From: a candidate division WWE3 bacterium
GTDB taxonomy: Bacteria; Patescibacteriota; WWE3; UBA101185; UBA10185
Length of the DNA stretch: 64,000 nucleotides
NCBI GenBank assembly: GCA_003599255.1
Contig: QZJF01000005.1
Span: 32,985-96,984, forward strand
Reading direction: 5' to 3'
The first letter of the stretch is position 1; each line of letters starts with the position of its first letter. The position numbers were made by a program, and so were the translations under genes. Shown here in pieces: positions 13,910-54,431 of this stretch. The notes under the pieces are model-generated. The model searched no databases, was not told the origin of the DNA, and saw nothing but the letters and a program-made list of their open reading frames with translations.

Positions 13910-13965
13910 TATATAAATTCTAATTTACTGTTTTGTTTAATCCACTAATCCCTGCTGTAGTTCGG

Positions 13966-22929: not shown

Positions 22930-23092
22930 TGTTAGATCCCTATTTTTCGTCAGTAAATTGTCCCATTTTTAACAAATATGAACAAGCAATTTTGCTTGAT
23001 TTCACGCCAAATAACTGAACATATAATGTGTTCGATTGCATTAAAACGTATGTTTTCAACACTTCCGCTACTTGAACACAAAAGATGTACAT

Positions 23093-39300: not shown

Positions 39301-42300
39301 CCCGATCCGCTAACTGCACCAACACCTGAAACGGAGTTGCACTCCCACCTGTCAGCTCCTGCGTTCCAGACCAATAGCTCATTGTCTGAACATCCGCCAA
39401 GAAGTCTAAGTCCGTCCGCTGTTACTTCAAGACCCGAATTTGAGGCTGTTGTTGAGGTTGTTCCTGTGGTAGTTGCATCTATAGTTATGTCATCTGTATT
39501 AACAGTTATCCCATCCCCGGCGCCGACATTAAGGGTTAATGACCCCGGACCTGTTCCGACATTTGTCAGTCCGTCACCCCCAAACACCGAGGTTACTGCA
39601 TAAGAAGATACATTGTTACTGTCAACCAAAGTGCCTGATCTACCTTGTAGCAGATTTAGTTCTGAAGTAGTAATAAGTGCGCCGTTAAGAATATTTATTT
39701 CGGATGCGTCTGCCGTAACTTGAGTTCCGTTTAGATAGAGCGAGGTCATGTTGACGGCTCCGTTAACGTCCAAAGTATAAGAAGAGCCCGGATTGGTAGT
39801 GCCAATTCCGACTCTGGTTCCGTTGTCATAAATAACACCTGTGGAAAGTGTGTTTTCATCGATCCATCTGGCCACATAATTTGTAATACCGGTTCCGTCA
39901 GTGAAGTTAAGTATCGGAGCTGTTGAGGCAGCTGTTAATCTCCCTTCGGCGTCGACTGTGAATACCGGAATGCCTGTTGATGATCCGTATGTACCTGCGC
40001 CTACTCCGGTATCGGAAAGGTCCAGTGTTCCCGTTGAGTCTATAGTTGCGTCGCCGCCCATGGCTTTGACGTTCCATCCTGTGCCTGTGCCAATTAATAA
40101 TGTTCCGGATGGTGCAGTCGAGGTATCAAGACCGGTACCGCCGTATGCAACTCCAAGCTGATTTGAAACGTTAGAGGTATTGGACAAATCTATGGCACTC
40201 TGGGTCAAAACCTGTGATGCTGCATTCAAAGAAAGATAGTTGGCTGTACCTGCTAACTGAAGTGCAGGATGTGTGTCCGATGCTAAAGAGTAGTTTAAGA
40301 AATTGGCGTCCAGGTCATTTAGTACTGCCTGAACATTTGTGCTGTTCGAGAAATCAAACTCATCATTAACTCCCACTAAATATGCACCGGATGTGGTTGG
40401 AGCGGAAGTGCTGCTGAGACCTATGGAACCTACCAGGAAGTCCGAACCTGATGCAACCCTTACATCACCGTTTACATCAAGTGCAAAAGCCGGCGCTGTA
40501 GTACCTATACCCAGTCTGCTAAGCGTTGAATCCCAGAAGAAATTATCGCTTCCGGTTAATGACGATGTACCGTTCCAGAAAGTAACTTGTCCTGCAGATC
40601 CCGATCCGCTTACCGCACCCACGCCTGAAACGGAGTTGCATTCCCATCTGTCAGCACCAGCATTCCAGACTAACAACTCGTTGTTTGAACATCCCCCCAG
40701 TAGTCTGAGACCACTTGCAGTAACTTCCAACCCTGAGTTTGATGCAGTTGTTGAGGTTGTTCCGGTCGTAGTTGCATCTATTGTTATGTCATCTGCGTTT
40801 ACTGTGATGCCGTCTCCCGCACCTACGTTCAAAGTTAATGATCCCGGTCCTGTACCAACATTTGTTAAGCCATTTCCGCCCAAAACTGATGTGACAGCAT
40901 AAGAAGAAACATTGTTGCTATCCAGCAATGTGCCTGATCTTCCCTGTAAAAGATTAAGTTCGGTTACGGTAATCAGTGCGCCGTCCAGTATGTTCAATTC
41001 GGCCGCAGTTGAGGTAACCTGTGACCCGTTGAGATACAAAGCAGTAGTGTTTACGGCACCGTTCACATCCAAAGCGTATGTTGCCCCGGGGTTTGTAGTG
41101 CCGATTCCAACTCTGGTTCCGGTGTCATATATAACTCCGGTTGCGAGAGTATTGTTGTCGGTCCATCTGGCAACATAATTTGCAAGTCCCGTTCCGTCTA
41201 CAATATTCAGGAGTGGGGAAGTGGTCACGGATGTTAATCGTCCTTTTGAATCAACCGTGATTACGGGAACACTTGTTGAGGATCCGTAGGTTGCAGCTGT
41301 AACACCTGTATTGGCTAATGTCAGAGTACCTGTTGAATCTATTGTTGCATCTCCTCCCATGGCTTTAACGTTCCATCCGGTTCCGGTACCAAGCAGAAGT
41401 GTTCCGGAAGGAGCTGTAGAAGTATCAAGTCCGGTACCGCCGTAAGCAACACCAAGCTGATTAGAAACATTTGAAGTATTAGAAAGATCAATGGCATTTT
41501 GAGTTAAAACCTGAGAAGGGCCGTTCAAAGAAAGATAATTTGCCGTTCCTGCAAGTTGTAATGCAGGATGTGAATCTCCGGCCAAAGTACCGAACTGAGC
41601 GTCCAGATCATTAAGCACTGCCTGTACATTTGTTGAATCTGAGTAAGTAAATTCATCATTTACACCGATGAGATAGGCACCGGAAGTGGTTGGTGCAGAA
41701 GTGCTGCTTAGTCCAATTGAGCCTATCAATAAATCGGAGCCTGCGGCAATTCTAATATCGCCGTTTACGTCCAGAGCGAAGGCAGGAGCGGTTGTGCCTA
41801 ATCCAAGTCTGTTTGTGTTGTTGTCCCAGAAGAAGCTGTCGCTGCCGGTTATTGATGAGGTTCCATTCCAGAACGTCACTTGTCCGGTTGCTCCTGATCC
41901 GTTGACAGCGCCAATTCCTGAAACTGAGTTGCATTCCCATCTGTCTGCTCCGGCGTTCCATACTAAGAGCTCACTGTTAGAGCATCCGCCGAGTAATCTA
42001 AGTCCGTCTGCAGTCACTTCCAATCCTGAATTTGATGCAGTAGTTGAGGTTGTTCCGGTTGTGGTCGCATCGATTGTAATGTCATCAGCATTAACGGTGA
42101 TGCCGTTGCCCGCACCGACATTTAGTGTCAGAGATCCCGGACCTGTTCCTGCATTTGTTAATCCACTGCCGCCAAGGACAGAGGTTACAGCATAGGAAGA
42201 CACATTGTTGCTATCGAGTAAAGTACCGGAGCGGCCTTGCAATAGATTGAGTTCGGAAGTCGTAATTAAAGCACCGTCCAAAATGTTGAGTTCTGCCGCC

Positions 42301-45300
42301 GATGAGGTAACCTGTGAACCGGAAAGATATAAGGAAGTCGTATTTATTGCTCCGTTTACATCTAAAGCATATGTGCTATTAGGGCTTGTGGTTCCTATAC
42401 CGACAACGCCGTTTGTATCTATGACAAAGGGTGTTAAATCTCCAGCCGAATCATTAACCAGAAAAGCGTATCCCGAAGGAGCTGTACTCGTAATAGTGAA
42501 TAATCCGCCATCTACATCAAAGAAGAATGGGGAAGTGCTGTCTTCGCCGCCGATTGCTACATCATCCGTGGTAGCTGTTAAAAATGTTATTGCGCCGTTG
42601 TCAGTCCATTTGGAAGCTCCTGCACCTATTGCTGCGTCCAAGTCATTGAGAACAGCTTGTACATTTGTAGCGTTGCTGTTATTAAATTCATCAAAGACTC
42701 CTACGACATAAGCGCCGGATGCAGTAGCACTGGCCGAGTCACCGATACCGATATTTCCGATTATGAAGTCGGAACCTGATGCAACCCTCACATCTCCGTT
42801 TACGTCAACTGCATATGCAGGAGCAGTGGTTCCTATGCCCAGTCTGCTAAGAGTTGAATCCCAGAAAAAGTTATCACTTCCGGTTAAGGACGATGTACCG
42901 TTCCAGAAAGTAACCTGCCCTGTTGCTCCGGATCCGTTGACTGCACCGACACCTGATACAGAATTGCATTCCCATCTATCGGCAAGTGCGTTCCAGACTA
43001 ACAGTTCGTTATTTGAACATCCTCCGATCATTCTTAAACCGGAAGCTGTTACTTCCAACCCCGAATTCGAAGCAGTTGTAGAAGTTGCACCGGTTGTAGT
43101 TGCGTCTATGGTGATGTCATTAGCATTAACGGTAATCCCGTCACCTGCGCCGATGTCGAGAGTTAATGCCCCTGTGGTGCCGCCGCCGGTTAAACCTGAT
43201 CCTGCAGTTACTGCGGTTGTAGCATAAGAACTGACATTGGACGAATCCACCAAGGTTCTTGTGCCCCAGAACAGATCTCCGGTGGGGGATCCTGCGGCTG
43301 CTGATGTATTTAAAACATTGTTTAGTCCTGCTGTCCCCAGTCTGATCGCTCCTGTTACGTCAAGTATTTCAGAAGGACTTGATGTTCCCACACCTACACT
43401 TGTGCCATTGTCAAAAAGTATTCCTGTGGAAAGATTTGTGGGGTCAGTCCATCGCGCTACATAATTTGCGATTCCTGTTCCGCCTAAAGATTGTGATATA
43501 GGGGCCGTGCTGGCAGAAGTAATTCGACCTTTTGCATCTACTGTTATGACAGGAATACCTGTAGTGGATCCGTAGGTTGCCGCGGAGACTCCGGTATTTG
43601 CAAGAGTAAGTGTGCCGGTAGAGTCAATGGCTGCATCTCCGCCCATTGCTTTTACATTCCAACCTGTGCCTGTGCCGATTAAAAGAGTTCCGGACGGTGC
43701 AGTGGAGGTATCAAGACCTGTACCACCGTATGCAACACCGAGTTGATTTGAAACATTAGACGTATTGGAAAGATCTATTGCACTTTGAGTTAGAACTTGT
43801 GACGCTGCGTTAAGTGATAAATAGTTTGCGGTGCCTGCTAATTGAAGTGCAGGGTGCGTATCCCCGGATAGAGTAGAGAGCTGCGCATCCAGATCGTCCA
43901 GCACATCCTGAACTGTGGTACCTGCGGAATAAGTAAATTCATCAAAGACTCCTACTCTTGACGCACCCGAGTCTGTATTTGAAGTGCCTGTATCGTTGAG
44001 TCCGATTGTCCCTATGTATAGATCCGAGCCGGAGGCAATTCTTATGTCTCCGTTCACATCAAGTGCGTAAGCGGGAGCCGTTGTACCGATACCAAGTCTG
44101 CTGGTGTTGCTGTCCCAGAAGAATGCGTCAGTTCCTGTTACAGATGAAGTGCCGTTCCAATAGGTTACCTGACCGGCTGATCCGGACCCGCTTACTGCTC
44201 CCACTCCTGAAACCGAGTTGCATTCCCATCTGTCGGCACCCGCGTTCCATACGAGCAGCTGGTTATTTGCGCATCCTCCCAGCATTCTTAAACCTGATGC
44301 TGTCACTTCCAGCCCTGAATTAGATGCTGTAGTTGAAGTTGCACCGGTCGTGGTCGCGTCAATCGTTATGTCGTCCGCGTTGACTGTTATGCCGTTTCCG
44401 GCTCCCACATTAAGAGTTAAAGATCCGGGGCCGGTTCCTACATTTGTTAAACCATTTCCGCCTAAAACCGAGGTTACTGCGTACGATGCAATGTTATTGT
44501 TATCCAGAAGTGTTCCCGTACGACCGGAAAGGAGATTGAGTTCCGATGTGGTAACAAGTGCGCCGTCAAGAATGTTCAATTCCGAAGCATCCGCAGTAAT
44601 CTGGGAATCATTCAGGTAGAGTGCAGTCATGTTTACCGGTCCATTTACATCAAGTGTGTAGGTAGGGTCAGGACTAGTTGTACCGATACCAACTGTTGTG
44701 CCGTTGTCATAGATGATGCCTGTTGTCAGAGAATTGCTGTCTGTCCATCTTGCCACATAGTTTGTTAGCCCGGTTCCGTCAACTATGTTTATAAGAGGGG
44801 AAGTGGCTGCGGAAGTTATTCTTCCCTCAGCATCAACTGTAACTACCGGTATACCTGTTGATGATCCGTATGTACCCGCTGCGACTCCGGTATCGGAAAG
44901 ATCCAGTGTTCCGGTATTGTCTATTGTCGCGTCACCTCCCATGGCTTTCACATTCCAACCGGTTCCGGTGCCGATCAGGAGAGTTCCCGAAGGGGCGGTT
45001 GATGTGTTAAGGCCGGTACCCCCGTATGCTACACCCAATTGGTTGGAGACATTTGAAGTATTTGAAAGATCTATGGCGCTTTGAGTTAGCACCTGTGAAG
45101 CTGCGTTAAGCGACAGATAATTTGCGGTGCCCGCCAACTGCAGTGCCGGGTGTGTATCTCCCGACAGAGTAGAGAGTTGTGCATCTAAATCGTCAAGTAC
45201 ATCTTGAACATTCGCACCGTTTGAGTAAGTAAATTCATCATTTGTGCCTACCAGATATGCTCCGGATGTTGTCGGGGAAGCGGTGTCTGTTAGACCGATT

Positions 45301-47555
45301 GACCCTATATGTAAATCCGAGCCGGAGGCAACCCTCACATTGCCGTTAACATCAAGAGAATACTGTGGATTTGTTGTTCCAATACCCACATTCCCCGAAC
45401 CATCTATGACAAAGGGTGTCGTATCAGCTGAACTATCGTTCACTCTAAACGAAAAACCGGATGTTGTGTTTGTCAGCGTTAATAGTTCATTTGTTATATC
45501 CAGGAAAAACGGAGAGCCCGGTTCACTTCCGCCTATCGATAAGTTTTGTGAGGTGGACACCGGGTGAATTGTCCCTGAGGTTACTGTCCATATTCCGCTT
45601 CCACCGCCGATTGCTGCGTTGTATGCGGTATTTATTGCGTCTACTATAGCTGTGTCTCCGCTGTCAAAATCTGTGTCAATATCTGTCATGGTGATTGGGG
45701 AGGTAAGTGTCGCGTCGTCGAAAGTAAGTGTGGTACCGCTTATACTTATTGCGTCTCCACCATCACCCAGATTAACTGGGCCGTTTGCTACAAGTGCTCC
45801 GGAAGAAATGGTCACGCCACCGCCTATTGTCATCCATTGGGAGAAAGTAGATGTGCCGTTTACGGTTAAAAGTTCGGTTCCCGGGTTCCATGTTATTTGA
45901 GTATCATCGTTTGTCAGTGTTCCGGCACTATCGGCAAAGAAAACTCCGTATGGATCAAATCCCGTGGTTGTAATAGGTCCAATGACCGATCCGTAAATTG
46001 TTCCCCCAACTTCCAGACTACCTTCGATGTATTGACTTTCTGACATACCTCCAACATAAGTAGGTGCTGTTGAGCCGTCCCCGATGTGAAGGGTTGTCAC
46101 GGGGCTTGTTGTTGAAATACCTACCCTTCCTGTTTCAGTAATCCTTAATCTCGTTATGTCGTTAGTTCTAAATGAAAGTCCTACATTGTCAGTGGTACCG
46201 ATAAAGTCTACATCGGGATCCGATCCGGCATTTCCTGCCAGAAGCCAGGAAATATCTCCAAAAAAAGTGGAAGTATTGGACCACTCCGGGGTTGTGCCAT
46301 CAGATGTCAAAATGTATCCGTTTGTTCCGGTTATTGAAATTACGGATAAGGTGTTAGAAGCCGAAGCGTACAAAAGATCCCCGGTTGTGTACGATGTCAA
46401 CCCAGTTCCTCCATTTTCAGGAGCTATTTCTGTACCTTGCCATACACCCGTGGTTATTGTGCCAAGTTGTGTAATTTCAGTCTGAGGTACGCTGGTCCAA
46501 TCACCATCAACTGCCATAATTATATTGTCATCATCTGTCGATAAGTCTCCAAAGGTGGCACCGTTAATGCTGACAACAGTTACATTACCCAGTCCGGTAC
46601 CTTCCACATCCCCACCGATATCAAGAGCTTCCTCTAAAGTTGTTTCGGTGACTTCATTGATAGCTCCCAAGTTGTTCAATGCCGCCGTTCCGATAAAGTT
46701 TACTTCTCCGGCGGTTATGGCTCCGGTTCCAAAATTCGCATCGGCGTTGTTTGTAGTAATGCCGCCTAGGAGAGAGGACAATTCATTAACAGTCAGGTCT
46801 TTTTCAAGTGTAATTGTCTCTCTAAATATCCCGGGCACACTAAGTCTGAACACAAAGTTTGCGTTTCGATCAACCGCAGCCAGAACATTGTCATAGAATG
46901 ACATCTTACCGGACTGCGGTACTTCTTTTCTTTGCGCAAATGCGCCTGATATTACGTGTACAAAATTATCTTTAAAACCCATGAAGGTTAGCAATCCAAA
47001 TGCAAAAACGATGAATATTATAATGCCCCCTATCTTTGTGAGTTTAGGATTTATGTGTATATGACTAAGAATGACGGATTTTCGTTTAATATCATTTAAC
47101 TTTGTCACTTCTTCAGGAATACTAGTGTCAGTCTTTGTCGCATTGATTTCATGATCAGCTTTTGTTTGTGCACCTAAATCCTGTTTCAATTTATTTTGCG
47201 AAAGAGCTTTCAATGTTCCTGTAAGGTTTAAAAGATCCGCTCTTGGAGACGCTTGAGGAACAGGAATGGAAGTAGTGGAAGAGTTAGTATTTTTTTTGAG
47301 ATCGGCTTTTTGATTGTTTAAATCCGTTTTCAGATTTAAAACATCACTGCGTTTAAACATTCTATACCCGTTAGGTTGTCGGATGGAGTTTACTTTATTC
47401 TCGCTTTCAAATCTGCGGAGAGTTGAAGAAGATACGCCTAATAACTTAGCTGCCTCGGAAACATTTAAAAGTTGTTTGGTAGATATGCTTGAAGAACTAT
47501 GTGATTTACTTGCAGGTTTTTTTCGTCTTTTTCTTTGGGCAGAAACTGAGCTCAT
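30279..47555 (-). CDS. Giant tail-fibre-like surface protein 4 (5758 aa): N-terminal Xis/MerR-type HTH, TM helix, reiterated fibre modules, C-terminal peptidase S74 intramolecular-chaperone domain, coiled-coil/(STE)5 tail
   Basis: Uninterrupted 17.3-kb ORF preceded by an AAGGA RBS. Residues 27–76 (LLNVSEAAKLLGVSSSTLRRFESENKVNSIRQPNGYRMFKRSDVL) match the excisionase/MerR-type HTH_17 pattern. The TM helix is IGGIIIFIVFAFGLLTFMGF at residues 175–194. About 5000 aa follow, made of three module types with recurrent GIGTT(S/N/A)Px..LDVNG motifs. Near the C-terminus LSSSERFKKDISDLDINLDSVLQLNPVTFKWN...FGLIAEQVEQVMPFLV matches the S74/endosialidase chaperone domain. Confidence 0.85.
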   Translation of the reverse strand: MSSVSAQRKRRKKPASKSHSSSSISTKQLLNVSEAAKLLGVSSSTLRRFESENKVNSIRQPNGYRMFKRSDVLNLKTDLNNQKADLKKNTNSSTTSIPVPQASPRADLLNLTGTLKALSQNKLKQDLGAQTKADHEINATKTDTSIPEEVTKLNDIKRKSVILSHIHINPKLTKIGGIIIFIVFAFGLLTFMGFKDNFVHVISGAFAQRKEVPQSGKMSFYDNVLAAVDRNANFVFRLSVPGIFRETITLEKDLTVNELSSLLGGITTNNADANFGTGAITAGEVNFIGTAALNNLGAINEVTETTLEEALDIGGDVEGTGLGNVTVVSINGATFGDLSTDDDNIIMAVDGDWTSVPQTEITQLGTITTGVWQGTEIAPENGGTGLTSYTTGDLLYASASNTLSVISITGTNGYILTSDGTTPEWSNTSTFFGDISWLLAGNAGSDPDVDFIGTTDNVGLSFRTNDITRLRITETGRVGISTTSPVTTLHIGDGSTAPTYVGGMSESQYIEGSLEVGGTIYGSVIGPITTTGFDPYGVFFADSAGTLTNDDTQITWNPGTELLTVNGTSTFSQWMTIGGGVTISSGALVANGPVNLGDGGDAISISGTTLTFDDATLTSPITMTDIDTDFDSGDTAIVDAINTAYNAAIGGGSGIWTVTSGTIHPVSTSQNLSIGGSEPGSPFFLDITNELLTLTNTTSGFSFRVNDSSADTTPFVIDGSGNVGIGTTNPQYSLDVNGNVRVASGSDLHIGSIGLTDTASPTTSGAYLVGTNDEFTYSNGANVQDVLDDLDAQLSTLSGDTHPALQLAGTANYLSLNAASQVLTQSAIDLSNTSNVSNQLGVAYGGTGLNTSTAPSGTLLIGTGTGWNVKAMGGDATIDNTGTLDLSDTGVAAGTYGSSTGIPVVTVDAEGRITSAATSPLINIVDGTGLTNYVARWTDSNSLTTGIIYDNGTTVGIGTTSPDPTYTLDVNGPVNMTALYLNDSQITADASELNILDGALVTTSELNLLSGRTGTLLDNNNIASYAVTSVLGGNGLTNVGTGPGSLTLNVGAGNGITVNADDITIDATTTGATSTTASNSGLEVTASGLRMLGGCANNQLLVWNAGADRWECNSVSGVGAVSGSGSAGQVTYWNGTSSVTGTDAFFWDSNTSRLGIGTTAPAYALDVNGDIRIASGSDLYIGTIGLNDTGTSNTDSGASRVGVFDEFTYSAGTTVQDVLDDLDAQLSTLSGDTHPALQLAGTANYLSLNAASQVLTQSAIDLSNTSNVSNQLGVAYGGTGLDTSTAPSGTLLIGTGTGWNVKAMGGDAAIDSTGTLTLANTGVSAATYGSTTGIPVITVDAKGRITSASTAPISQSLGGTGIANYVARWTDPTNLSTGILFDNGTSVGVGTSSPSEILDVTGAIRLGTAGLNNVLNTSAAAGSPTGDLFWGTRTLVDSSNVSSYATTAVTAGSGLTGGGTTGALTLDIGAGDGITVNANDITIDATTTGATSTTASNSGLEVTASGLRMIGGCSNNELLVWNALADRWECNSVSGVGAVNGSGATGQVTFWNGTSSLTGSDNFFWDSTLSRLGIGTTAPAYAVDVNGDVRVASGSDFIIGNIGIGDSASATASGAYVVGVFDEFNNSNATNVQAVLNDLDAAIGAGASKWTDNGAITFLTATTDDVAIGGEDSTSPFFFDVDGGLFTITSTAPSGYAFLVNDSAGDLTPFVIDTNGVVGIGTTSPNSTYALDVNGAINTTSLYLSGSQVTSSAAELNILDGALITTSELNLLQGRSGTLLDSNNVSSYAVTSVLGGSGLTNAGTGPGSLTLNVGAGNGITVNADDITIDATTTGTTSTTASNSGLEVTADGLRLLGGCSNSELLVWNAGADRWECNSVSGIGAVNGSGATGQVTFWNGTSSITGSDSFFWDNNTNRLGLGTTAPAFALDVNGDIRIAAGSDLLIGSIGLSSTSAPTTSGAYLIGVNDEFTYSDSTNVQAVLNDLDAQFGTLAGDSHPALQLAGTANYLSLNGPSQVLTQNAIDLSNTSNVSNQLGVAYGGTGLDTSTAPSGTLLLGTGTGWNVKAMGGDATIDSTGTLTLANTGVTAATYGSSTSVPVITVDSKGRLTSVTTSPLLNIVDGTGLANYVARWTDNNTLATGVIYDTGTRVGIGTTNPGATYALDVNGAVNTTALYLNGSQVTSTAAELNILDGALITVTELNLLQGRSGTLLDSNNVSSYAVTSVLGGNGLTNVGTGPGSLTLNVGAGDGITVNADDITIDATTTGTTSTTASNSGLEVTASGLRLLGGCSNNELLVWNAGADRWECNSVSGVGAVSGSGSAGQVTFWNGTSSLTGSDNFFWDSTLSRLGIGTTAPAFALDVNGDVRVASGSDFLVGSIGLSSTSAPTTSGAYLVGVNDEFDFSNSTNVQAVLNDLDANFLNYSLASDTHPALQLAGTANYLSLNAASQVLTQSAIDLSNTSNVSNQLGVAYGGTGLDTSTAPSGTLLIGTGTGWNVKAMGGDATIDSTGTLDLSDTGVGAGTYGSSTGIPVFTVDAEGRLTAASTAPILNFTDGTGITNYVARWIDENTLSTGVIYDNGTRVGIGTTNPGSSYTLDVNGAVNMTSLYLNGTQVTADASEINILNGALITTSELNLLQGRSGTLVDSNNVSSYAVTSVFGGDGLTNVGTGPGSLTLNVGAGDGITVNTDDITIDATTTGTTSTTASNSGLEVTADGLRLLGGCSDNELLVWNAGADRWECNSVSGVGAVSGSGAIGQVTFWNGTSSLTGSDSFFWDSSLNRLGIGTTAPAFALDVNGDVRVASGSDFFVGSIGLSSTSAPTTSGAYLVGVNDEFDFSNSTNVQAVLNDLDANFLNYSLAGDTHPALQLAGTANYLSLDAASQILTQSAIDLSNTSNVTNQLGVAYGGTGLDTSTAPSGTLLIGTGTGWNVKAMGGDATIDSTGTLDLSDTGVGAGTYGSSTGIPVFTVDAEGRLTSASTAPLLNITDGSGIANYVARWTDDNTLSTGLLYDTGTLLGLGTTAPAFKLDVNGDVRVASGSDFFVGSIGLSSTSAPTTSGAYLIGVNDEFDFSNSTNVQAVLNDFDANFLNYSLAADTHPALQLAGTANYLSLNGSQVLTQSAIDLSNTSNVSNQLGVAYGGTGLDTSTAPSGTLLIGTGTGWNVKAMGGDATIDSTGTLDLSDTGVGAGTYGSATGIPVITVDSEGRLTAASTSPLLNITDGSGIANYVARWIDSNTLSTGIAYDTGTYFGIGTTNPNQELHVVGVGTAILADGFNQTTGIDIALRSNIRTWNLGVDGSGTATTQGEFWISDGQSTLKRLLIDGSGYVGIGTTNPVERLDVSGGIRLGTAGTNNILNTSAAAGSPTGDLYWGSDVIVDSSNVSTYATTGVTAGSGLTGGGTTGVLTLDIGAGDGITVNANDITIDATTTGTTSVTASNSGLEVTADGLRLLGGCSNGEALTWDTTLQVWKCSSVAAGLTGAGTIGQVAFWDGTSSITGSDSFFWDSNTSRLGLGTTAPAFTLDVNGDVRVASGSDFFVGSIGLSSTSAPTTSGAYIIGVNDEFDFSNSTNVQAVLNDLDANFLNYSLAGDTHPALQLAGTANYLSLSAASQILTQSAIDLSNTSNVSNQLGVAYGGTGLDTSTAPSGSILLGTGTGWNVKAMGGDATIDSTGTLDLSDTGVGAGTYGSATGIPIITVDAEGRLTSASTAPLLNVTDGTGITNYVARWTDENTLSTGILYDNGTNVGVGTTNPAYILDVYSGSTTGGLGVFADSVTTGTGALFSFDGLTTGTGLSISSTSSSFSTGTLAAVDWSPLSSATASGDLFSINIGSNGSLTGNLFAVYDDGAAVFTVQQNQIESAVPHVFTAAGDVSFSYDAIFTNQTSAQIESYGPFSIIAGESFESNNLTLRTYGTGNIIADLGGNFVLYDNDPTLVFDTETATDTDFWMGILENSDNTDNDLLVIGDGTSSGTNPFFAITTSGDIGIGTTNPAAKLEINGAIRLGGETIGDFVGSGLIVSGTALSLDVTTTSTTSTTAANSGLEVTADGLRLLGGCADGEALIWDSSREVWDCTAVAAGLSGSGTAGQVAFWDGSTSLTGNDSLFWDSGTSRLGLGTTAPDAILHAVGGDLYVAPDSGYTFDNASAAEDLYVFGNLEIDGTIYGNTASLGQIDIGGESIGDFVGDGLIVSGTALSLDVTTTSTTSTTASNSGLEVTADGLRLLGGCSNGEALTWDTSQEVWKCSSVAAGLTGSGSIGQVAFWDGTSSITGSDSFFWDTSTGRLGLGTTAPAFTLDVNGDIRIASGSDLLIGSIGLSSTSAPTTSGAYLVGVNDEFDFSNSTNVQAVLNDLDANFLNYSLASDTHPALQLAGTATYLSLDGSQVLTQSAIDLSSSLNVSNVLGTTNGGTGLDTSTAPSGSLLIGTGTGWNVKAMGGDATIDSTGTIDLSDTGVAAGTYGSTTGIPIVTVDAEGRLTSASTAPLLNITDGTGIANYVARWTDNNTLSTGILYDDGTNVGVGTTNPSYMLEVFSGSTTGGLGVFADSVTTGTGALFSFDGLTTGTGLSISSTSTAFSTGTLAAVDWSPLSSATASGDLFSINIGSNGSLTGNLFAVYDDNSPLFTITQSQITSYLPHTFSSAGDVSFSYDAIFTNQTSSQIESYGPFTIIAGESFENNDLTLRTYGSGDIVADLGGNFVLYDNDPTLLFDVESGTDTDFWMGVLEDSDSTDDDIFAIGDGLSSGTNPFFVINTSGNIGIGTTNPAATLDVNGTIRLGGETIGDFVGNGLILSGTALSLDVATTSTTSTTASNSGLEVAADGLRLLGGCGNGELLTWDSSQQVWKCSPEAGSGTITGTGVAGRVSFWDGSSSLASSQDFYWDNINSRMGIGNSSPQDTLHINGGFRIQESGYSSYTSIDTYSLGVGSGTMRFFADGTNGLSYDFRDQFGSIFNIGSGTNDSTFNYGLNVNGDTTLGDDSSDTLTLNAGTWISSNTASLNLAASTTALNIESGLMNFDTTNARVGIGTVTPQNKLDISGNAVIGSYAGTDTAPANGLLVSGNVGIGTTAVGYQLDVRSATTQGALGVFADNVTTGTGALFSFDGLTTGTGLSVSSTSTTLAGALTSIDWSPISSSTATGDLFKINIGSNGTLDGGNLFGVYDDNSELFTINQTVITSYLPHSFAAAGDVSIANDIQFTGQSSSYIKTYAPLYLEVGESHESNNLTLRTFNSGDVVLDAAGGVTLNQAQAWSLATSTTALNFGNNLLNLDTTNDRIGIGTTTPQNTLDVFGNAAFGTYAGVSTAPTNGLIVSGNVGIGTSEPGYTLDVNGTARVSNIPTGTGTALYFDSNNQLIQLSSSERFKKDISDLDINLDSVLQLNPVTFKWNSTTVTPDVEDFGLIAEQVEQVMPFLVSYEADGITPKGVKYDRLGVVLLGALQEQQIQIDSFGDVMGITTQLQTDVQDTYQQVTDTTVGFDTRITTLESEFAQLTQNYDNLGNDFITLEEEVDNVKNDVALIKELLGMGSSTQSTESTESTESTESTESFNLLTLLTDPMGILNQIETLYNDFKDMVSELGLQNNDGQLAVTTDLNVTGDTTLSNLVVTGDLMAGLVEIDSLSNSIGIVGPSCYNETLGTTNQVLCEAQTLYLQKELSGNLDIFDGKIVLEPNGTLTVDGTINAEKVVADEFSVKGTSTLVGSGTITAGQTEVLIANTNVKAGSKIFVTATSSTNGQALIVKEKIDGTSFKVGLDVPHFQDISFDWWILNVE
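32000..45500 (-). repeat. Large intragenic tandem repeats in giant gene 4 (about 0.65–2.3 kb units, at least 8 copies of modules A/B and 3 copies of module C)
   Basis: Opposite-strand shadow ORFs with near-identical translations recur at 34546, 36835, 38338, 39004, 40339, 41686, 42763 and 44218 (MLFEKSNSSLTPTKYAPEVVGAEVLL...). A second shadow series appears at 33151 and 35266. Protein blocks such as TSTTASNSGLEVTA(S/D)GLRLLGGCSNNELLVWNAGADRWECNSVSG are repeated at least 6 times with about 85–95% identity. Confidence 0.8.
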
Positions 47556-47582
47556 TTTTTATCCTTTTCAAATGTTGTTATA

Positions 47583-47632
47583 AAAACATTTGATAATGTT
47601 TTAATGATATGAAACACAGGTTTATGTGTCAA
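47583..47632 (-). promoter_or_regulatory. Sigma70-like promoter of giant gene 4 with an overlapping palindromic operator-like element
   Basis: Read on the minus strand: TTGACA at 47632–47627, a 17-nt spacer, then TATCAT at 47609–47604. Just downstream lies AAAACATT-tgat-AATGTTTT (47583–47602), with a further inverted copy CAAATGTT at 47569–47576 between the predicted TSS and the RBS. Confidence 0.4.
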
Positions 47633-48335
47633 CACTTTTCGAAGGTTGGAATATGTTGTTGTTACAATATATAATGCCTGTCAATGTGTATTGATAAACG
47701 TGAATATTTTTTTTGTTGTTACAGCAATAAAAGATAACCTTTATTTTTAATATAAATTCCTGCAAAAATCGAGTAAACTTTGTCCGGAATTATTTGACCT
47801 GTGACTTTGAAAATTATTTAAAAAATATTGTAAATTTTGCGATACTGTTGTCATATATTTTCCTAGTGACTTCTTTTCTCTAAGTTTTTGTGTTTCGTTT
47901 GTCCGGTTAATTGATTTGTAAAAAATTTGAAACAGTTTTAAACTTAGATTTCAAAGGTCATTAATTTTAGACATAGATTTTCATATAACCATGCCTGGGT
48001 AAAAAAGTAGTTCATTTGTTAATCTTTTAGATATCTCAAGGATGCACTGCGAACTTACATATTTTCTATTTAACCCATGTAACTCTCAAGTTTACTTAAT
48101 ACTTTAAAAAATTTTTAATTTCTGTAGAATTTTATTAACGGCTTTTACCTTTAATCTACATTTTTTAATTACGGCTTATTGCTCGGACAGCGTAGTGAGT
48201 TAAGATCCAGCTTGACGTCAATGGAGATTATTATAATGACCGTTAGAGTAGTGATGTTTTTAATGTTTACCAAATGCCGTCGATACAGCATTTAACAATG
48301 TATATTTGTTTAAATATTCTGGTTGTATCGTGTAG

Positions 48336-49124
<789 letters not shown>

Positions 49125-49153
49125 ATGAGTTTTTAGTGTGATAAACTAATTTT

Positions 49154-49888
49154 ATGCAATTACTGCCCTTGGATTTAGCTGCATTCTTGTCAAAATATCT
49201 TTATCTGATAATCACTTTTGTGATGATTCAGGGTTCGTTGACTTTTGTACTTTTATTTTTATTCATAGATAAAATTACCAGCTCCAGAAAAGTTAAGACG
49301 CAGGAATTGCTGGCAAAACAGGACGCATATGAAGAATCCTTACGTATTCTAAACGATTCCAAAGCACAATCATCCAAGCTCATCCTTGCAGCGCAGGAGC
49401 AGTCTGCCAAAATAATTCAGGGGACAAATTTTCTCAATGATTCATTTAAAGAAAAATTTGCAGAAGAGTTAAAAAGTCTTGTAGATCGTCAGGAGAGCGT
49501 TTTCAAAAATGTTGCGGATGAATTATCCAAGCAATACCAACAGGCTTTTGAGCAGGAAAAGATAACGACGCTGAGCGAACTTACCAAGGTCTCCGATACT
49601 TTACGTTCCGATATGCTGACAAAAGTTGACGAATTTAAATCTGTGTTAGAAAAAAATACTGTGGAGGCAGAGACGGAACTTAAAGGGAGAATTCAACAGG
49701 ATTATGATGAACTTAGTAAAAGGATGAAAGAGTACGAAACCATAAAAATTCAGAAAATAGATGAGAAGATATTTCTTATACTTACCCAAGTTACTAAAGA
49801 CATATTAGGATCGGCTCTTACCATAAATGAACAGGAAGAACTGGTATTTAAGGTGCTAAGTGATGCAAAAGTTAGACAAGGTATCTGA
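49154..49888 (+). CDS. atpF: F-type ATP synthase subunit b-like (N-terminal TM helix plus long coiled coil)
   Basis: One N-terminal TM helix (YLYLIITFVMIQGSLTFVLLFLFI) is followed by about 200 aa of charged heptad-rich helix. The gene lies immediately upstream of delta and alpha. Confidence 0.55.
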   Translation: MQLLPLDLAAFLSKYLYLIITFVMIQGSLTFVLLFLFIDKITSSRKVKTQELLAKQDAYEESLRILNDSKAQSSKLILAAQEQSAKIIQGTNFLNDSFKEKFAEELKSLVDRQESVFKNVADELSKQYQQAFEQEKITTLSELTKVSDTLRSDMLTKVDEFKSVLEKNTVEAETELKGRIQQDYDELSKRMKEYETIKIQKIDEKIFLILTQVTKDILGSALTINEQEELVFKVLSDAKVRQGI

Positions 49889-50402
49889 TATGTACACTTT
49901 AGATTCCCAAACAAAGCAAATAATTCTGGATACTTTAATGACACAATCTGCTGCTTTCGAGCTAATTGAGGAATTGTCATATGCTAATTCATTACTATAC
50001 AAATCTGAGCCTGATAGCGAGTCTACTTATGGTAAAGCGGTAAACAATGTGAAATATTCTGACTTATTGAATCAACTTTTTGCATCCGATGTTCAATCGG
50101 TAAGCCGACCTGAGGAATTATCCAGATTTGTCGAGGAGATCCATAACTGGTTGAAGGATATCGAGCCGGTTAGATACACTGTAGCTTTTAAGCCCGGGAT
50201 GGAGTTTACAAAAAACATGTACAAATGGACAAAAGAAAATATAAGTGGTCAGCACTTAATTGAAATAGAGACAAAGTCTGAAATTATTGGAGGAGTTATC
50301 ATCTCTGCAAATGGACGATATCACGATTTTTCTCTTGAAAAGATTATCAACCAATATTTTTCCTTAAACAAAGATGCAATCTTATCAATACTACAAAAAT
50401 GA
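49860..50402 (+). CDS. atpH: F-type ATP synthase delta (OSCP)-like subunit
   Basis: 180 aa protein between the b and alpha genes. The call rests on size and position; sequence similarity is weak. Confidence 0.45.
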   Translation: MMQKLDKVSDMYTLDSQTKQIILDTLMTQSAAFELIEELSYANSLLYKSEPDSESTYGKAVNNVKYSDLLNQLFASDVQSVSRPEELSRFVEEIHNWLKDIEPVRYTVAFKPGMEFTKNMYKWTKENISGQHLIEIETKSEIIGGVIISANGRYHDFSLEKIINQYFSLNKDAILSILQK

Positions 50403-51870
50403 ATACAACAAATGTCTGGAACTAACGGGCGAGACAGGCTATGTTGAAAGCGTGGTGCCCCCGATAGTTTATATAAATGGTCTTCCCGGAGTTCGATTTG
50501 GGGAAGTGGTTTATTTTGAAACCGGAGAAATGGGAATTGTAATATCTCTCGATTCAGATAGCGCGGAAGTATTGCTTTTTTCACGAAATCCTATTGTGGT
50601 AGGAACCCAAGCCGCCCGATCCGGCATGCCTTTAAAAATGCCCGTGGGAGGGGAGTATGTCGGACATTCTATTGATCCACTTGGAAGAAGTACCAGCGAG
50701 TCGGTTTATATTCCCAGGCCAACGGAATATCGTATATTGGACCGTCCTGCCCCCGGTATAGATATGAGGGAGAAGATAACACAGAGTTTTGAGACGGGAG
50801 TCGCCGTTGTAGATTTAATGATACCTTTGGGTAAAGGACAACGTGAGTTAGTGCTCGGGGACAGAAAGACAGGTAAAACGGAATTTCTGATGCAAGTATT
50901 ATTAACCCAGGCTAAACAAGGCAGTATATGTATTTATACGGGCATAGGAAAGAAAAAAGTTGATATCAAAAGAGCGGAAGAATTCGTACTTCGTCATAAT
51001 TTGACTCAAAATACTATTATTCTTTCAACAAGTTCAACCGATCCTCTTGGCTTAATTTATATCACGCCGTATGCAGCAATGACCCTGGCAGAGTACTTTA
51101 GAGACCAGGGCAGGGACGTTTGTATTATATTGGACGATTTATCTACACACGCGAAATTCTATAGAGAAATTTCATTAATTGGCAAAAGATTTCCGGGAAG
51201 AAACTCGTATCCGGGAGATATTTTTTATGCCCATTCCCGCTTACTTGAAAGAGCAGGAAACTTTAGGACGCAGCACGGTGTTGGGTCCGTAACATGTTTG
51301 CCGGTTGCAGAAACAATAGAAAGTGATATTTCAGGGTATATACAGACAAATCTTATGTCAATTACTGACGGTCATGTGTACTTCGACCATGAATTGTTTG
51401 AACAAGGAAGAAGACCTTCAGTAAATTATTTTTTATCAGTAACTAGGGTTGGTAGACAGACCCAAAGTAAGGTCCGTTGGGGAATTAACAGAGAACTTAG
51501 TAGTTTCTTAACATTGTATGAAAAAACTCAGCGATTTATACACTTTGGAGCGGAACTTAATGAAGGAATTAAGTCAACACTAAGCATGGGAACAAGAATT
51601 TTAAATTTCTTTGATCAGCCCATGGGACATACGGTCGGCATGGACATTCAGATATTAATTTTTTGTTTAATTTGGATAGGAGCAATTCCTGAAGAAGATT
51701 CCGCAAGACTACAATATATTACTAGTAAGTGCATGACATTGTATGACAGTAATGAGCAATTTAAAGACTTAGTTGGTAAGTTAATAGATGAAAGTAACGA
51801 TTTTAATGTGTTACTTGGGCGTATTAGTAGTCAATCGAAGCAAATAATGGAAATTATCGATAAAGGTTAA
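50374..51870 (+). CDS. atpA: F-type ATP synthase alpha subunit
   Basis: The P-loop [10 protein letters not shown] matches alpha [19 protein letters not shown] matches [43 protein letters not shown] matches [34 protein letters not shown]. Confidence 0.85.
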   Translation: [498 protein letters not shown]

Positions 51871-51880
51871 ATGAAGTAAT

Positions 51881-52756
51881 ATGCAGAATAAGAAAGAATT
51901 ATTAGACGAAATAGCAACATTAACCAGCTTAAAAAACATAGTCGAGTCGTACGAAGAAATAGCTGCTTTAAGAATGAGAAAAGTTAAAAAATCTGTTCTT
52001 CAAAACAGAGAATTCTTAACCGGACTTGATGATTTATATCAAAGAGTTATGTTTACCTATAAGTCTTATATTGAGCAGAAAAAAACTGATAAAGACAAAA
52101 AAACATGGTTACCTCTTAACACTAATGGAAAGACTGTATCCGTATTAATATCTTCAAACACAGGATTATATGGCGAAATAATTAGGACATCGTTTGATTA
52201 TTTTATTGACAATATACGAAATAAAAGTACAGATGTTGTCATATGTGGAAGAATAGGCAAACAATTATATGATTCTCTTATTTCCACAGGAAACAGTTTA
52301 CCCGAGTATCAATTCTTTGACCTTCAGGATTCAGGTGTAAATCAAAATGAATTAAAGAAAATTCTTGATTTTATATTAAATTATTCAAATGTCGTAGTGT
52401 ATCATGGATTATATGTCAGTGTTTTGAGTCAGCAACCTACGGCAACTTTTGTTACAGGAAAAGCACTTGAAGTCCAGAGTGCAGATAAAGCAAACGAGTT
52501 GAAATGCATTATTGAGCCTTCTGTACTGGAAGTTACCGAATTCTTTGAAAAACAAATTTTGTCTTCAATTTTCGAACAATCAGTCTACGAAGCTAGTTTA
52601 AGTAAATTTGCATCCAGGATGGTCAGTTTAGATCTTGCCAACGAAAATATTTCGGAGCAAATAAAAAAAGTTAATTTTAAAAAGTTAAAAGTAAAGCACA
52701 ATGATGACAATCTTCAGCAAATAGAAAGGTTGTCCGGTATATCTTTGTGGTCTTAG
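51881..52756 (+). CDS. atpG: F-type ATP synthase gamma subunit
   Basis: 291 aa protein between alpha and beta. LKNIVESYEEIAALRMRKVKKSVLQNREF corresponds to the gamma N-terminal helix ([26 protein letters not shown]). Confidence 0.6.
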   Translation: MQNKKELLDEIATLTSLKNIVESYEEIAALRMRKVKKSVLQNREFLTGLDDLYQRVMFTYKSYIEQKKTDKDKKTWLPLNTNGKTVSVLISSNTGLYGEIIRTSFDYFIDNIRNKSTDVVICGRIGKQLYDSLISTGNSLPEYQFFDLQDSGVNQNELKKILDFILNYSNVVVYHGLYVSVLSQQPTATFVTGKALEVQSADKANELKCIIEPSVLEVTEFFEKQILSSIFEQSVYEASLSKFASRMVSLDLANENISEQIKKVNFKKLKVKHNDDNLQQIERLSGISLWS

Positions 52757-52765
52757 AATTAATAG

Positions 52766-54431
<1,666 letters not shown>

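What the first reader, a model, noticed from the sequence alone, without database searches (positions are those of the whole stretch)
47330..47490. Cytoplasmic Xis/MerR-type HTH fused in-frame to the N-terminus of the giant fibre protein
Residues 27–76 of gene 4 read LLNVSEAAKLLGVSSSTLRRFESENKVNSIRQPNGYRMFKRSDVL, which follows the HTH_17 / excisionase-MerR pattern (helix, turn, recognition helix and β-wing). About 100 aa of polar linker follow, then a single TM helix at residues 175–194, then about 5500 extracytoplasmic residues in the same ORF. The topology is ToxR/CadC-like: a DNA-binding domain inside and a giant ectodomain outside. The giant surface protein could itself be a one-component membrane-tethered transcription factor that couples surface engagement to gene control, possibly autoregulation through the palindromes just upstream. 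A less likely alternative is that the HTH marks a degenerate excisionase fusion.
Basis: partly seen in the sequence, partly recalled or inferred. Interest (0 to 1): 0.7.

Follow-up and report, generated by a model that had tools for sequence, protein, structure and literature searches.

The report
DNA-binding tail on giant surface fibre
A 5,758-residue surface fibre of an ultra-small (candidate division WWE3) bacterium carries a conserved MerR/BldC-type DNA-binding domain on its short cytoplasmic tail. This layout recurs in more than a hundred related protein clusters, which suggests a direct but still untested link between cell-surface fibres and the DNA inside.

Summary
ORF 30279-47555 (-) encodes, in one frame, five parts:
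- a basic N-terminal arm;
- a MerR-type winged HTH at res 29-92 (PF00376 and PF13411, both above gathering score);
- a disordered linker of about 77 aa;
- one TM helix at res about 170-197;
- about 5,560 T/G/S-rich residues ending in a Peptidase_S74 trimer-chaperone domain.

The fusion is not an artefact. Met1, the HTH and the TM are kept in syntenic WWE3 orthologues. Of the 150 best cluster representatives, 147 have the HTH and 104 show one to eight tandem HTHs followed by a single TM, in proteins of up to 7,185 aa.

The HTH is closest in fold to BldC, Xis and RacA, the minimal MerR-like DNA binders that lack a coiled coil. The arginines that contact DNA in BldC are 92-95% conserved across the family.

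Nothing shows regulation, however, and an architectural DNA tether is a serious rival.

The upstream palindrome is real, but it behaves as a conserved 5'-UTR hairpin. Its arms differ between clades while the recognition helix does not, so it is probably not the HTH's operator. The excisionase-remnant and wrong-start ideas are rejected.

I rate this a new variant of a known kind, of moderately high interest.

The parts
30279..47555 (-). Complete giant ORF, 5,758 aa: HTH, linker, TM, fibre ectodomain
   Evidence: ORF list and translation. Only one hydrophobic segment. Composition T 13.6, G 13.1, S 11.0 %.
47472..47555 (-). Basic N-terminal arm, res 1-28 (MSSVSAQRKRRKKPASKSH...)
   Evidence: Translation. 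M1, A6 and Q7 are invariant in the first four sequences aligned; only M1 stays invariant when a fifth is added.
47280..47471 (-). MerR/BldC-type winged helix-turn-helix, res 29-92
   Evidence: Pfam MerR and MerR_1 above gathering score. AF2 pLDDT above 90. Foldseek best matches are BldC, Xis and RacA. Invariant T45, R47, R48, R59, Y64, R65.
47049..47279 (-). Polar linker, res 93-169, poorly conserved and predicted disordered
   Evidence: AF2 pLDDT is below 50 for most of 98-168. Length and sequence vary between orthologues. The family median gap from HTH to TM is 52 aa.
46965..47048 (-). Single transmembrane helix (type II signal anchor), res about 170-197
   Evidence: Kyte-Doolittle 19-aa windows above 1.6 only here. 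AF2 helix 170-193.
46602..46892 (-). Conserved juxtamembrane (JM) ectodomain module, res 222-318 (LSSLLGGITTNNADANFGTG...LNNLGAINEVTETTLEEALDI); no Pfam family
   Evidence: Strongly conserved in orthologues. Present in 61 of 150 family representatives, 58 of them with the HTH. No Pfam hit.
31347..31514 (-). Peptidase_S74 intramolecular-chaperone domain, res 5348-5403, the mark of a self-trimerising fibre
   Evidence: PF13884 44.5 bits against gathering 22. Tail-fibre and baseplate PHROG hits lie in the same C-terminal part. A similar domain occurs in 10 of 33 family proteins of 1,000 aa or more (the window's protein included).
47604..47632 (-). Sigma-70-type promoter TTGACA-17-TATCAT of the giant gene
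   Evidence: 11 of 12 consensus match. The -35 and -10 boxes are conserved in five orthologous upstream regions.
47568..47593 (-).
   Evidence: Inverted repeats I9 and I22. MFE -7.5 kcal/mol, z -3.1. An equivalent hairpin occurs in four orthologues, z -2.3 to -4.8. 88.9% of cells paired, against 29-42% in slid controls; 5 pairs with changes on both sides.
47573..47721 (-). Three same-strand copies of TAACAACA (47573-47580, 47657-47664, 47714-47721) around the promoter
   Evidence: Only 5 copies in the 64-kb window, 3 of them here. Meaning unknown.
5771..30307 (-). Three co-directional downstream giants (2,404, 2,987 and 2,712 aa). Each has an N-terminal TM and 8-9 Laminin_G_3 lectin domains, and none has an HTH
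   Evidence: Translations. Pfam. The same partners follow the HTH giant in related loci.
48345..54163 (+). Divergently transcribed F-type ATP synthase operon, separated by a 790-bp intergenic region of 27.8% GC
   Evidence: Pfam. GC content. The same neighbour is found in 7 of 10 informative family contexts.

Best explanation
Gene 30279-47555 encodes a type-II (N-in) membrane-anchored, probably trimeric, giant surface fibre. Its roughly 170-residue cytoplasmic tail carries a minimal MerR-like winged HTH of the BldC/Xis/RacA kind.

Shown:
- the domain order;
- its conservation in syntenic WWE3 orthologues;
- its recurrence, with 1-8 tandem HTHs, in over a hundred Patescibacteria protein clusters;
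- near-invariance of the residues that contact DNA in BldC.

Inferred:
- The HTH binds DNA from the membrane on a flexible leash of about 50-100 residues, which should reach much of the nucleoid in an ultra-small cell.
- Minimal MerR-like domains such as BldC are monomers that bind DNA only as cooperative head-to-tail arrays. DNA binding here would therefore be set by how many tails are brought together: three per assembled fibre, more where fibres cluster or where HTHs are tandem.
- The output is most likely transcriptional control, making the protein a transmembrane transcription regulator that reports fibre assembly or engagement. Candidate targets are its own giant-gene cluster and the divergent atp operon.
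- The upstream palindrome is most likely a 5'-UTR RNA hairpin, not the operator.
For: - HTH identity: Pfam MerR and MerR_1 above gathering score. PDB sequence hits to CueR, BldC and SoxR. AF2 model with pLDDT above 90. Foldseek best matches are BldC-DNA complexes (TM 0.71-0.78, rmsd 1.4 A, 32% identity), Pukovnik Xis and the RacA DNA-binding domain.
- DNA contacts: ungapped alignment to BldC puts its base-contacting R30 on R48, T27 on T45, wing R47 on R65 and R41 on R59 (residue roles from PMC5859096). Over 235 family HTH domains these columns are 88-95% conserved, while neighbouring columns vary.
- Topology: one TM only, a basic N-terminal part, and a T/G/S-rich acidic remainder with a fibre chaperone domain.
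- Conservation: same Met1, HTH and TM in P0001, P0002, P0004 and L003, with kept synteny. A full-length 7,185-aa orthologue lies at the same locus.
- Family: 2,177 hits at E<=1e-3. Of the best 150, 147 have the HTH and 104 have an HTH followed by a TM (101 of them with a single TM); 29 are 1,000 aa or longer.
- Precedent: a census found 50,302 transmembrane transcription regulators, 56% single-pass. It lists MerR (386), MerR_1 (350) and HTH_17 (151) among their DNA-binding domains (PMC10269533).
- Divergent arrangement from the atp operon in six loci.
Against: - No binding site or regulated gene is identified.
- The only conserved palindrome differs in sequence between clades although the recognition helix does not.
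- The promoter spacer is 17 bp, not the 19-20 bp of classical MerR-activated promoters.
- There is no coiled-coil dimerisation helix or effector domain.
- Arrays of up to 8 tandem HTHs, and a protein with at least nine tandem HTH units and no TM, look more like architectural DNA binders than specific regulators.
- Two adjacent paralogous HTH giants in one locus (L009, L012) argue for a generic rather than a signal-specific role.
- It is unclear how a signal would pass along about 5,560 residues, one TM and a disordered linker.
- An HTH next to a TM is not proof of DNA binding. By my own knowledge, not checked with these tools, RodZ's HTH binds MreB, yet the HTH_25 plus DUF4115 architecture that I recognise as RodZ is counted in the regulator census.
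Confidence: 0.42

Rival explanations
1. Architectural tether. The HTH binds DNA with low specificity and high avidity (three or more copies per fibre, more in tandem-HTH relatives). It ties the fibre base and membrane to the nucleoid, as RacA ties the chromosome to the cell pole. There is no regulatory output. The DNA would serve as an internal anchor or as a positional cue for where fibres sit.
For: - RacA and Xis, architectural proteins that do not act in transcription (PMC5859096), are among the best fold matches.
- Tandem arrays of 2, 3 and 8 HTHs lie before the TM, and poly-HTH proteins exist.
- The recognition residues are nearly invariant across very divergent family members and adjacent paralogues, as expected for a generic DNA grip.
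- No conserved operator was found.
Against: - There is no evidence on sequence specificity either way.
- Position 44, equivalent to base-contacting K26 of BldC, varies (S 40%, D 26%, K 14%). That could tune specificity.
- The divergent placement next to an operon is typical of regulators.
Confidence: 0.25
2. The HTH has been re-used for a role that does not involve DNA. It could be a protein-binding module, as in RodZ, whose HTH binds MreB. Or it could simply be a fast-folding basic domain that fixes N-in topology and stops the single TM from being pulled through the membrane.
For: - RodZ shows that an HTH, a TM and an ectodomain need not make a transcription factor. The RodZ role is from my own knowledge; the HTH_25 plus DUF4115 architecture is counted in the census.
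- No operator was found.
- A few JM-domain relatives lack the HTH (3 of 61).
Against: - The conserved columns are the ones that contact DNA in BldC (R48, R65, T45, R59), at 88-95%.
- A mere topology plug would not need them.
- No conserved partner gene with a cytoplasmic product lies next to the family members.
Confidence: 0.15
3. Artefact or remnant. Either a small HTH or excisionase gene was fused to the fibre by a sequencing or assembly error or a wrong start codon, or the HTH is a decaying mobile-element excisionase.
For: - HTH_17 and PHROG excisionase profiles give sub-threshold or moderate hits.
- One orthologue (L002) has a broken reading frame further downstream.
Against: - The same in-frame fusion appears in independent assemblies of many lineages.
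- M66 is not conserved.
- No integrase or recombinase is present in the window.
- GC and GC3 are within the range of the window's housekeeping genes.
- No relative was found in viral contigs.
Confidence: 0.02

Closest known systems
BldC (Streptomyces; PDB 6ama, 6amk)
   Same: Minimal MerR-like winged HTH with no coiled-coil dimerisation helix and no effector domain. It is the best structural match. The base-contacting Arg and the wing Arg are conserved. Tandem HTHs in family members recall BldC's head-to-tail multimers on direct repeats (PMC5859096).
   Different: BldC is a soluble 68-aa protein. Here the domain is tethered to a TM helix and a 5,560-aa ectodomain. The score against the NCBIfam BldC model is far below its cut-off (24.9 against 77). 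No direct-repeat operator was identified.
Transmembrane transcription regulators (ToxR, CadC, TcpP; census in PMC10269533)
   Same: An N-terminal cytoplasmic DNA-binding domain, a flexible linker, a single TM and an extracytoplasmic C-terminal part. MerR-type DNA-binding domains occur in this class (736 MerR or MerR_1 domain counts in the census).
   Different: By established knowledge, not tested here, ToxR and CadC use an OmpR-type winged helix and have compact periplasmic sensor domains. Here the DNA-binding domain is MerR/BldC-type, and the outside part is a giant fibre with a trimer chaperone domain and no recognisable sensor domain.
RacA (Bacillus subtilis chromosome anchor; PDB 5i44)
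   Same: A MerR-like winged HTH used to tie DNA to a fixed cellular site. It is a good fold match (TM 0.64), and it uses an Arg equivalent to BldC R30 (PMC5859096).
   Different: By established knowledge, RacA reaches the membrane indirectly, through a coiled coil and DivIVA. Here the tether is a covalently attached TM helix.
RodZ
   Same: A bitopic protein with an N-terminal cytoplasmic HTH, one TM and an external domain.
   Different: By established knowledge, RodZ has an XRE-type HTH that binds MreB, not DNA, and a small periplasmic domain. It serves here as a caution, not as a relative.
Phage tail fibres and endosialidases with a Peptidase_S74 intramolecular chaperone
   Same: A C-terminal S74 domain with the SSxRxK-like motif (SSSERFKKD). 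Tail-fibre PHROG hits.
   Different: The gene is cellular, chromosomally syntenic and membrane-anchored at its N-terminus. No relative of the N-terminal module was found in viral contigs.

Membership tests
MerR-type HTH domain (Pfam PF00376 / PF13411) | Profile match above the curated gathering score | tested here: met
   36.6 bits against 28.2, and 33.3 bits against 21.6.
Classical MerR-family regulators (MerR, CueR, SoxR, BmrR) | Long antiparallel coiled-coil dimerisation helix after the winged HTH | tested here: not met
   The AF2 model has a single helix at 69-92, followed by a largely disordered linker of about 77 aa. The match to CueR stops at residue 72.
Classical MerR-family regulators (MerR, CueR, SoxR, BmrR) | C-terminal effector-binding domain | tested here: not met
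   No such domain in Pfam or NCBIfam. The HTH is followed by a linker and a TM.
Classical MerR-family regulators (MerR, CueR, SoxR, BmrR) | Palindromic operator inside a promoter spacer of 19-20 bp | tested here: not met
   The own promoter has a 17-bp spacer, and the palindrome lies downstream of the -10 box.
BldC family (NCBIfam NF033787) | Profile score above the cut-off (77 bits) | tested here: not met
   24.9 bits. The resemblance is structural only.
BldC family (NCBIfam NF033787) | Cooperative head-to-tail binding to direct repeats | not testable with these tools
   This needs EMSA or a structure. No tandem repeat matching the 9-bp BldC direct repeat was found upstream: TRF reported only two weak AT-rich arrays of period 10-11, score 32-35.
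Excisionase / HTH_17 (PF12728, TIGR01764) | Profile above cut-off | tested here: not met
   26.4 bits against 27, and 21.6 against 28.8.
Excisionase / HTH_17 (PF12728, TIGR01764) | Association with an integrase or mobile element | tested here: not met
   The neighbours are ribosomal-protein, ATP synthase and glycogen genes. No recombinase is present.
Transmembrane transcription regulators as defined by Demey et al. 2023 | A DNA-binding domain plus at least one TM region in one protein | tested here: met
   This definition is purely architectural.
Transmembrane transcription regulators as defined by Demey et al. 2023 | Regulates transcription while membrane-bound | not testable with these tools
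   No expression or binding data exist for this uncultured lineage.
ToxR/CadC-like receptors | OmpR-type winged-helix DNA-binding domain (Trans_reg_C) | tested here: not met
   No Trans_reg_C hit. The domain is MerR-type.
Peptidase_S74 fibres (intramolecular chaperone) | PF13884 above gathering score near the C-terminus | tested here: met
   44.5 bits against 22, res 5348-5403.
Peptidase_S74 fibres (intramolecular chaperone) | Trimerisation and self-cleavage | not testable with these tools
   Inferred from knowledge of the family only.

The most novel reading that the evidence does not exclude
A bacterial counterpart of Notch, adhesion-GPCR or RsgI signalling. Pulling on the host-bound giant fibre would expose or cleave the conserved juxtamembrane module. 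A site-2 protease would then cut the TM; an M50 gene lies about 9 kb away and is kept in orthologous loci. That would release the BldC-like domain to act on DNA. Host attachment of an ultra-small episymbiont would thus be converted mechanically into gene control, or the fibre would physically couple host contact to the nucleoid.
Probability: 0.1. Interest if true: 0.9.

Novelty: new variant of a known kind. Interest (0 to 1): 0.62.

Why it matters
Patescibacteria (CPR) are a large share of bacterial diversity. Those that have been cultivated live attached to host cells, and how they sense attachment is unknown. By my recollection, not checked here, they also have very few recognisable regulators.

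A conserved DNA-binding domain on the inner end of their largest surface fibres is a concrete, testable candidate for a link between the surface and the genome. It would extend the transmembrane-regulator class to a very different kind of outside domain: a trimeric fibre thousands of residues long rather than a small sensor.

It also explains an annotation oddity. Proteins of 3,000-4,000 aa are named 'MerR family DNA-binding transcriptional regulator' in public records.

Tried and rejected
- Rfam scan of the upstream region: no match.
- Homologue search with the juxtamembrane domain alone: no hit, because the word prefilter gave only 26 candidates. The linkage of HTH and JM was therefore taken from the profile search instead.
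- AlphaFold2 of the JM module as a monomer with 21 sequences: pLDDT 51.7, uninformative, so no fold search was run.
- Viral contig scan for the N-terminal module: none found.
- Tandem-repeat search for BldC-like direct repeats upstream: only two weak AT-rich arrays.
- Compositional test for foreign origin of the HTH part: GC 36% and GC3 0.26, at the low end of the range of housekeeping genes. This is not informative.
- ATP synthase adjacency as proof of a regulatory target: present in 7 of 10 informative contexts but absent in L012, L014 and L015. I kept it as an unexplained observation only.
- Literature searches for a described family of MerR-HTH giant fibres in CPR: none found. Kantor et al. 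2013 mention surface proteins of up to 5,900 aa in the WWE3, SR1, TM7 and OD1 genomes but no HTH.
- Palindrome as the HTH operator: rejected as the leading reading, for the reasons given in the full report.

Full report
**1. What is in the sequence**

The finding lies in ORF 30279-47555 on the minus strand, which encodes 5,758 aa. ATG 47555 is the first possible start after the upstream in-frame stop. An AAGGA Shine-Dalgarno sits at 47562-47566 (read).

Pfam places MerR (PF00376; 36.6 bits, gathering 28.2, E 3.9e-9) on residues 32-67. MerR_1 (PF13411; 33.3 bits, gathering 21.6) covers residues 31-77. HTH_17 scores 26.4, just below its gathering score of 27. NCBIfam gives only sub-threshold matches to BldC, HspR, FtsR, excisionase, CueR and RacA models. 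PHROGs give excisionase or regulator families.

A hydropathy scan finds a single hydrophobic segment in the whole protein, with windows covering residues 168-197. Residues 1-174 hold 32 K+R against 14 D+E. The remaining roughly 5,560 residues are T/G/S-rich with only 2.8% K+R.

AlphaFold2 on a four-sequence alignment models residues 29-92 with pLDDT above 90, as strand, helix, helix, beta-hairpin wing and helix 69-92. Most of residues 98-168 falls below pLDDT 50. There is a helix at 170-193.

**2. The outside part is a fibre**

Residues 5348-5403 match Peptidase_S74, the intramolecular chaperone of endosialidases and tail fibres (44.5 bits, gathering 22). The sequence there reads SSSERFKKD. 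The C-terminal region also hits tail-fibre and baseplate PHROGs. From knowledge of that family, the protein should fold as a trimer. That is inference, not something shown here.

The three genes that follow on the same strand are 2,404, 2,987 and 2,712 aa long. Each has an N-terminal TM and 8-9 Laminin_G_3 lectin domains, and none has an HTH.

**3. Genomic setting**

The window is cellular DNA. On the minus strand it carries nusG, rplK and rplA (56155-54435). An F-type ATP synthase operon lies on the plus strand (48345-54163). A 790-bp intergenic region of 27.8% GC follows, then the four giants, then rplJ and rplL (5500-4523) and glycogen genes. The closest relatives come from candidate division WWE3.

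**4. Is the fusion real and conserved?**

It is. P0001, P0002, P0004 and the L003 gene are 35-45% identical over the N-terminal 320 aa. They share Met1, the HTH, a variable linker, the TM and a strongly conserved juxtamembrane module. They sit in the same place, divergent from the atp operon and next to rplA, rplK and nusG. Most are cut by contig ends. A 7,185-aa full-length orthologue lies at the same locus on a 994-kb contig, and it also carries MerR and Peptidase_S74 hits.

That refuter fails.

**5. A large family**

A profile of the first 310 positions was searched against 1.84 billion cluster representatives. It gave 2,177 hits at E<=1e-3 and 325 at E<=1e-10. I scanned the best 150 with my own HTH and JM profiles and a hydropathy filter:

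| Feature | Count among the best 150 |
|---|---|
| Have the HTH | 147 |
| HTH followed by a TM | 104 (101 with exactly one TM; median gap 52 aa) |
| No TM detected | 43, of which 40 are shorter than 300 aa and probably fragments |
| One HTH copy (among the 104) | 60 |
| Two HTH copies | 41 |
| Three HTH copies | 2 |
| Eight HTH copies | 1 (P0122) |
| HTH-then-TM proteins of 1,000 aa or more | 29 |
| HTH-then-TM proteins of 2,000 aa or more | 13 (largest 7,185 and 6,147 aa) |
| Carry the JM module | 61, of which 58 also have the HTH |

An S74-like domain is found in 10 of the 33 proteins of 1,000 aa or more, a set that includes the window's own protein. NCBI names two members 'MerR family DNA-binding transcriptional regulator [Patescibacteria group bacterium]'. 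No relative of the N-terminal module was found in viral contigs.

**6. What kind of HTH is it?**

Sequence search of the PDB finds CueR (E 3.7e-4), BldC (0.008), SoxR and CarH. Foldseek ranks BldC-DNA complexes first (TM 0.71-0.78, rmsd 1.4 A, 32% identity). Mycobacteriophage Pukovnik Xis and the RacA DNA-binding domain follow, and classical MerR regulators come after those.

Like BldC, the domain lacks the coiled-coil dimerisation helix and any effector domain. BldC is a monomer that binds direct repeats as cooperative head-to-tail multimers. [quoted passage not shown]

An ungapped BLASTP alignment puts BldC R30 on R48, T27 on T45, R47 on R65 and R41 on R59.

Over 235 HTH domains from 150 proteins in the scanned family set, these columns are 92% R, 88% T, 95% R and 93% R. 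R47 is 94% R. Flanking columns vary. The profile used to collect the family contains these residues, so there is some ascertainment bias. Even so, the contrast with neighbouring columns argues for selection on a DNA-binding surface.

**7. The upstream palindromes**

The best promoter match is TTGACA-17-TATCAT at 47632-47604. It is conserved in the orthologous upstream regions. It lies at 47593-47568, starting about 4 nt after the predicted transcription start and ending just before the Shine-Dalgarno sequence. As RNA it folds with -7.5 kcal/mol and z -3.1.

Four WWE3 orthologues have a hairpin at the same place, with z from -2.3 to -4.8. Their arm sequences differ:
- window: TTATCAA...;
- L007: GGTTATCAA/TTGATAACC;
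- L001, L002 and L003: TTTACTA(T)/(A)TAGTAAA.

On the five-sequence alignment, a nine-pair helix is 88.9% paired, against 29-42% for slid controls. Five pairs change on both sides. Only about three independent lineages are involved.

A palindromic operator could also change symmetrically. However, the recognition helix (STLRRFE) is unchanged between these clades. I therefore read the element as a 5'-UTR hairpin, or as a site for another factor, rather than as this HTH's operator. Its role is unknown; mRNA stabilisation for a 17-kb message is plausible.

No BldC-like tandem direct repeats were found. Three same-strand copies of TAACAACA lie within 150 bp of the promoter, out of five in the whole window. 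I could not evaluate their meaning.

**8. How it most likely works**

The shown facts are the architecture, its conservation and the DNA-competent HTH.

The inferred steps are these. The tail stays in the cytoplasm and holds a DNA-binding domain on a flexible leash. Domains of this minimal type need cooperative assembly, so fibre trimerisation, fibre clustering or tandem duplication would set DNA affinity. The output is either transcriptional control or plain tethering.

I rank transcriptional control first, at about 0.4. Three things favour it:
- the large precedent class, 50,302 predicted transmembrane regulators including MerR-type ones (PMC10269533);
- the divergent placement next to an operon;
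- position 44 of the recognition helix varies, which could tune specificity.

Plain tethering, as in RacA, comes second at about 0.25. The tandem arrays, the poly-HTH relatives, adjacent paralogues with the same recognition residues, and the lack of any operator favour it.

A non-DNA role, as with the HTH of RodZ, remains possible at about 0.15. An artefact or excisionase remnant is excluded for practical purposes.

**9. Comparison with what is known, and novelty**

Transmembrane regulators and minimal MerR-like binders are both known, and automated annotation already labels family members as MerR regulators. I found no paper describing the combination seen here. That combination is a BldC-like domain, in one to eight copies, on the cytoplasmic tail of trimeric fibres thousands of residues long, conserved across Patescibacteria and leading clusters of poly-lectin giants. 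I therefore rate it a new variant of a known kind. Function is untested.

**10. Limits**

- No SignalP or TMHMM was available, so topology rests on hydropathy, charge and the nature of the domains.
- Family taxonomy is known only for a few members.
- Counts come from the best 150 representatives only.
- The trimer state and self-cleavage are inferred from Pfam family knowledge.
- The JM module could not be modelled.

Noticed in passing
window 48345-54163 (+), with loci L001, L008, L009, L010, L011 and the P0127 locus: The HTH-giant gene lies beside the F-type ATP synthase operon in 7 of 10 informative contexts. It is divergent in six and co-directional just after atpC and a probable tRNA in L011. 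AtpD identity between these loci is only 52-63%. The operon is absent near the gene in L012, L014 and L015. Either synteny is unusually persistent or there is a functional link.
   Followed up: partly
window 4523-56155: The usual nusG-rplKA-rplJL ribosomal-protein cluster is split by the atp operon and about 42 kb of four giant surface-protein genes. The same arrangement is seen at the P0127 locus.
   Followed up: partly
window 47568-47593 (-), with L007, L001, L002, L003: A conserved stem-loop sits at the very 5' end of the predicted giant-gene transcript. Paired changes between clades preserve the stem. It may be an mRNA stabiliser or a translational control element for a 17-kb message.
   Followed up: partly
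window 47573-47580, 47657-47664, 47714-47721: Three same-strand copies of TAACAACA lie around the giant-gene promoter, spaced 84 and 57 bp apart. There are only five copies in the 64-kb window.
   Followed up: partly
proteins P0122 and P0163 (family relatives): P0122 has eight tandem MerR-like HTH units followed by a TM. P0163 (1,015 aa) consists almost entirely of tandem HTH units and has no TM. These are covalent arrays of a domain that binds DNA as head-to-tail multimers in BldC.
   Followed up: partly
window 46602-46892 (-), res 222-318: A conserved juxtamembrane module (LSSLLGGIxTxNADANxGTG...LNNLxAIxxxTETTLEExLDI) has no Pfam family. It is present in 61 of the 150 best family representatives. 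The AlphaFold2 monomer model is uninformative.
   Followed up: partly
window 56427-57032 (+); L001 190-798; L008 215-856: A short Peptidase_M50 (site-2 protease) gene lies next to secE and nusG, about 9 kb from the giant's start. It is kept in orthologous loci. It is a candidate for intramembrane cleavage of the tail, but nothing links the two.
   Followed up: no
window 47556-48344: The intergenic region is unusually long (790 bp) and AT-rich (27.8% GC) for a compact genome. It has no Rfam match and only short ORFs. The orthologous regions are 197-1,037 bp.
   Followed up: partly
window 30279-30307: The giant ORF overlaps the predicted TTG start of the next giant by 29 nt, which suggests translational coupling or a later true start for gene 2.
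   Followed up: no
L002 5488-5629: The orthologue P0001 stops at residue 529, and the homologous sequence continues in another frame. This is a frameshift, a pseudogene or an assembly error in that metagenome contig.
   Followed up: partly
window 48345-50402 (+): The first three ORFs of the atp operon (259, 244 and 180 aa) have no Pfam match at E<=0.001. The membrane and stalk subunits are very divergent.
   Followed up: no
L009 8001-30040; L012 8001-27271: Some genomes carry two HTH giants in one locus: 4,679 and 2,855 aa in L009, and 3,756 and 4,645 aa in L012.
   Followed up: no
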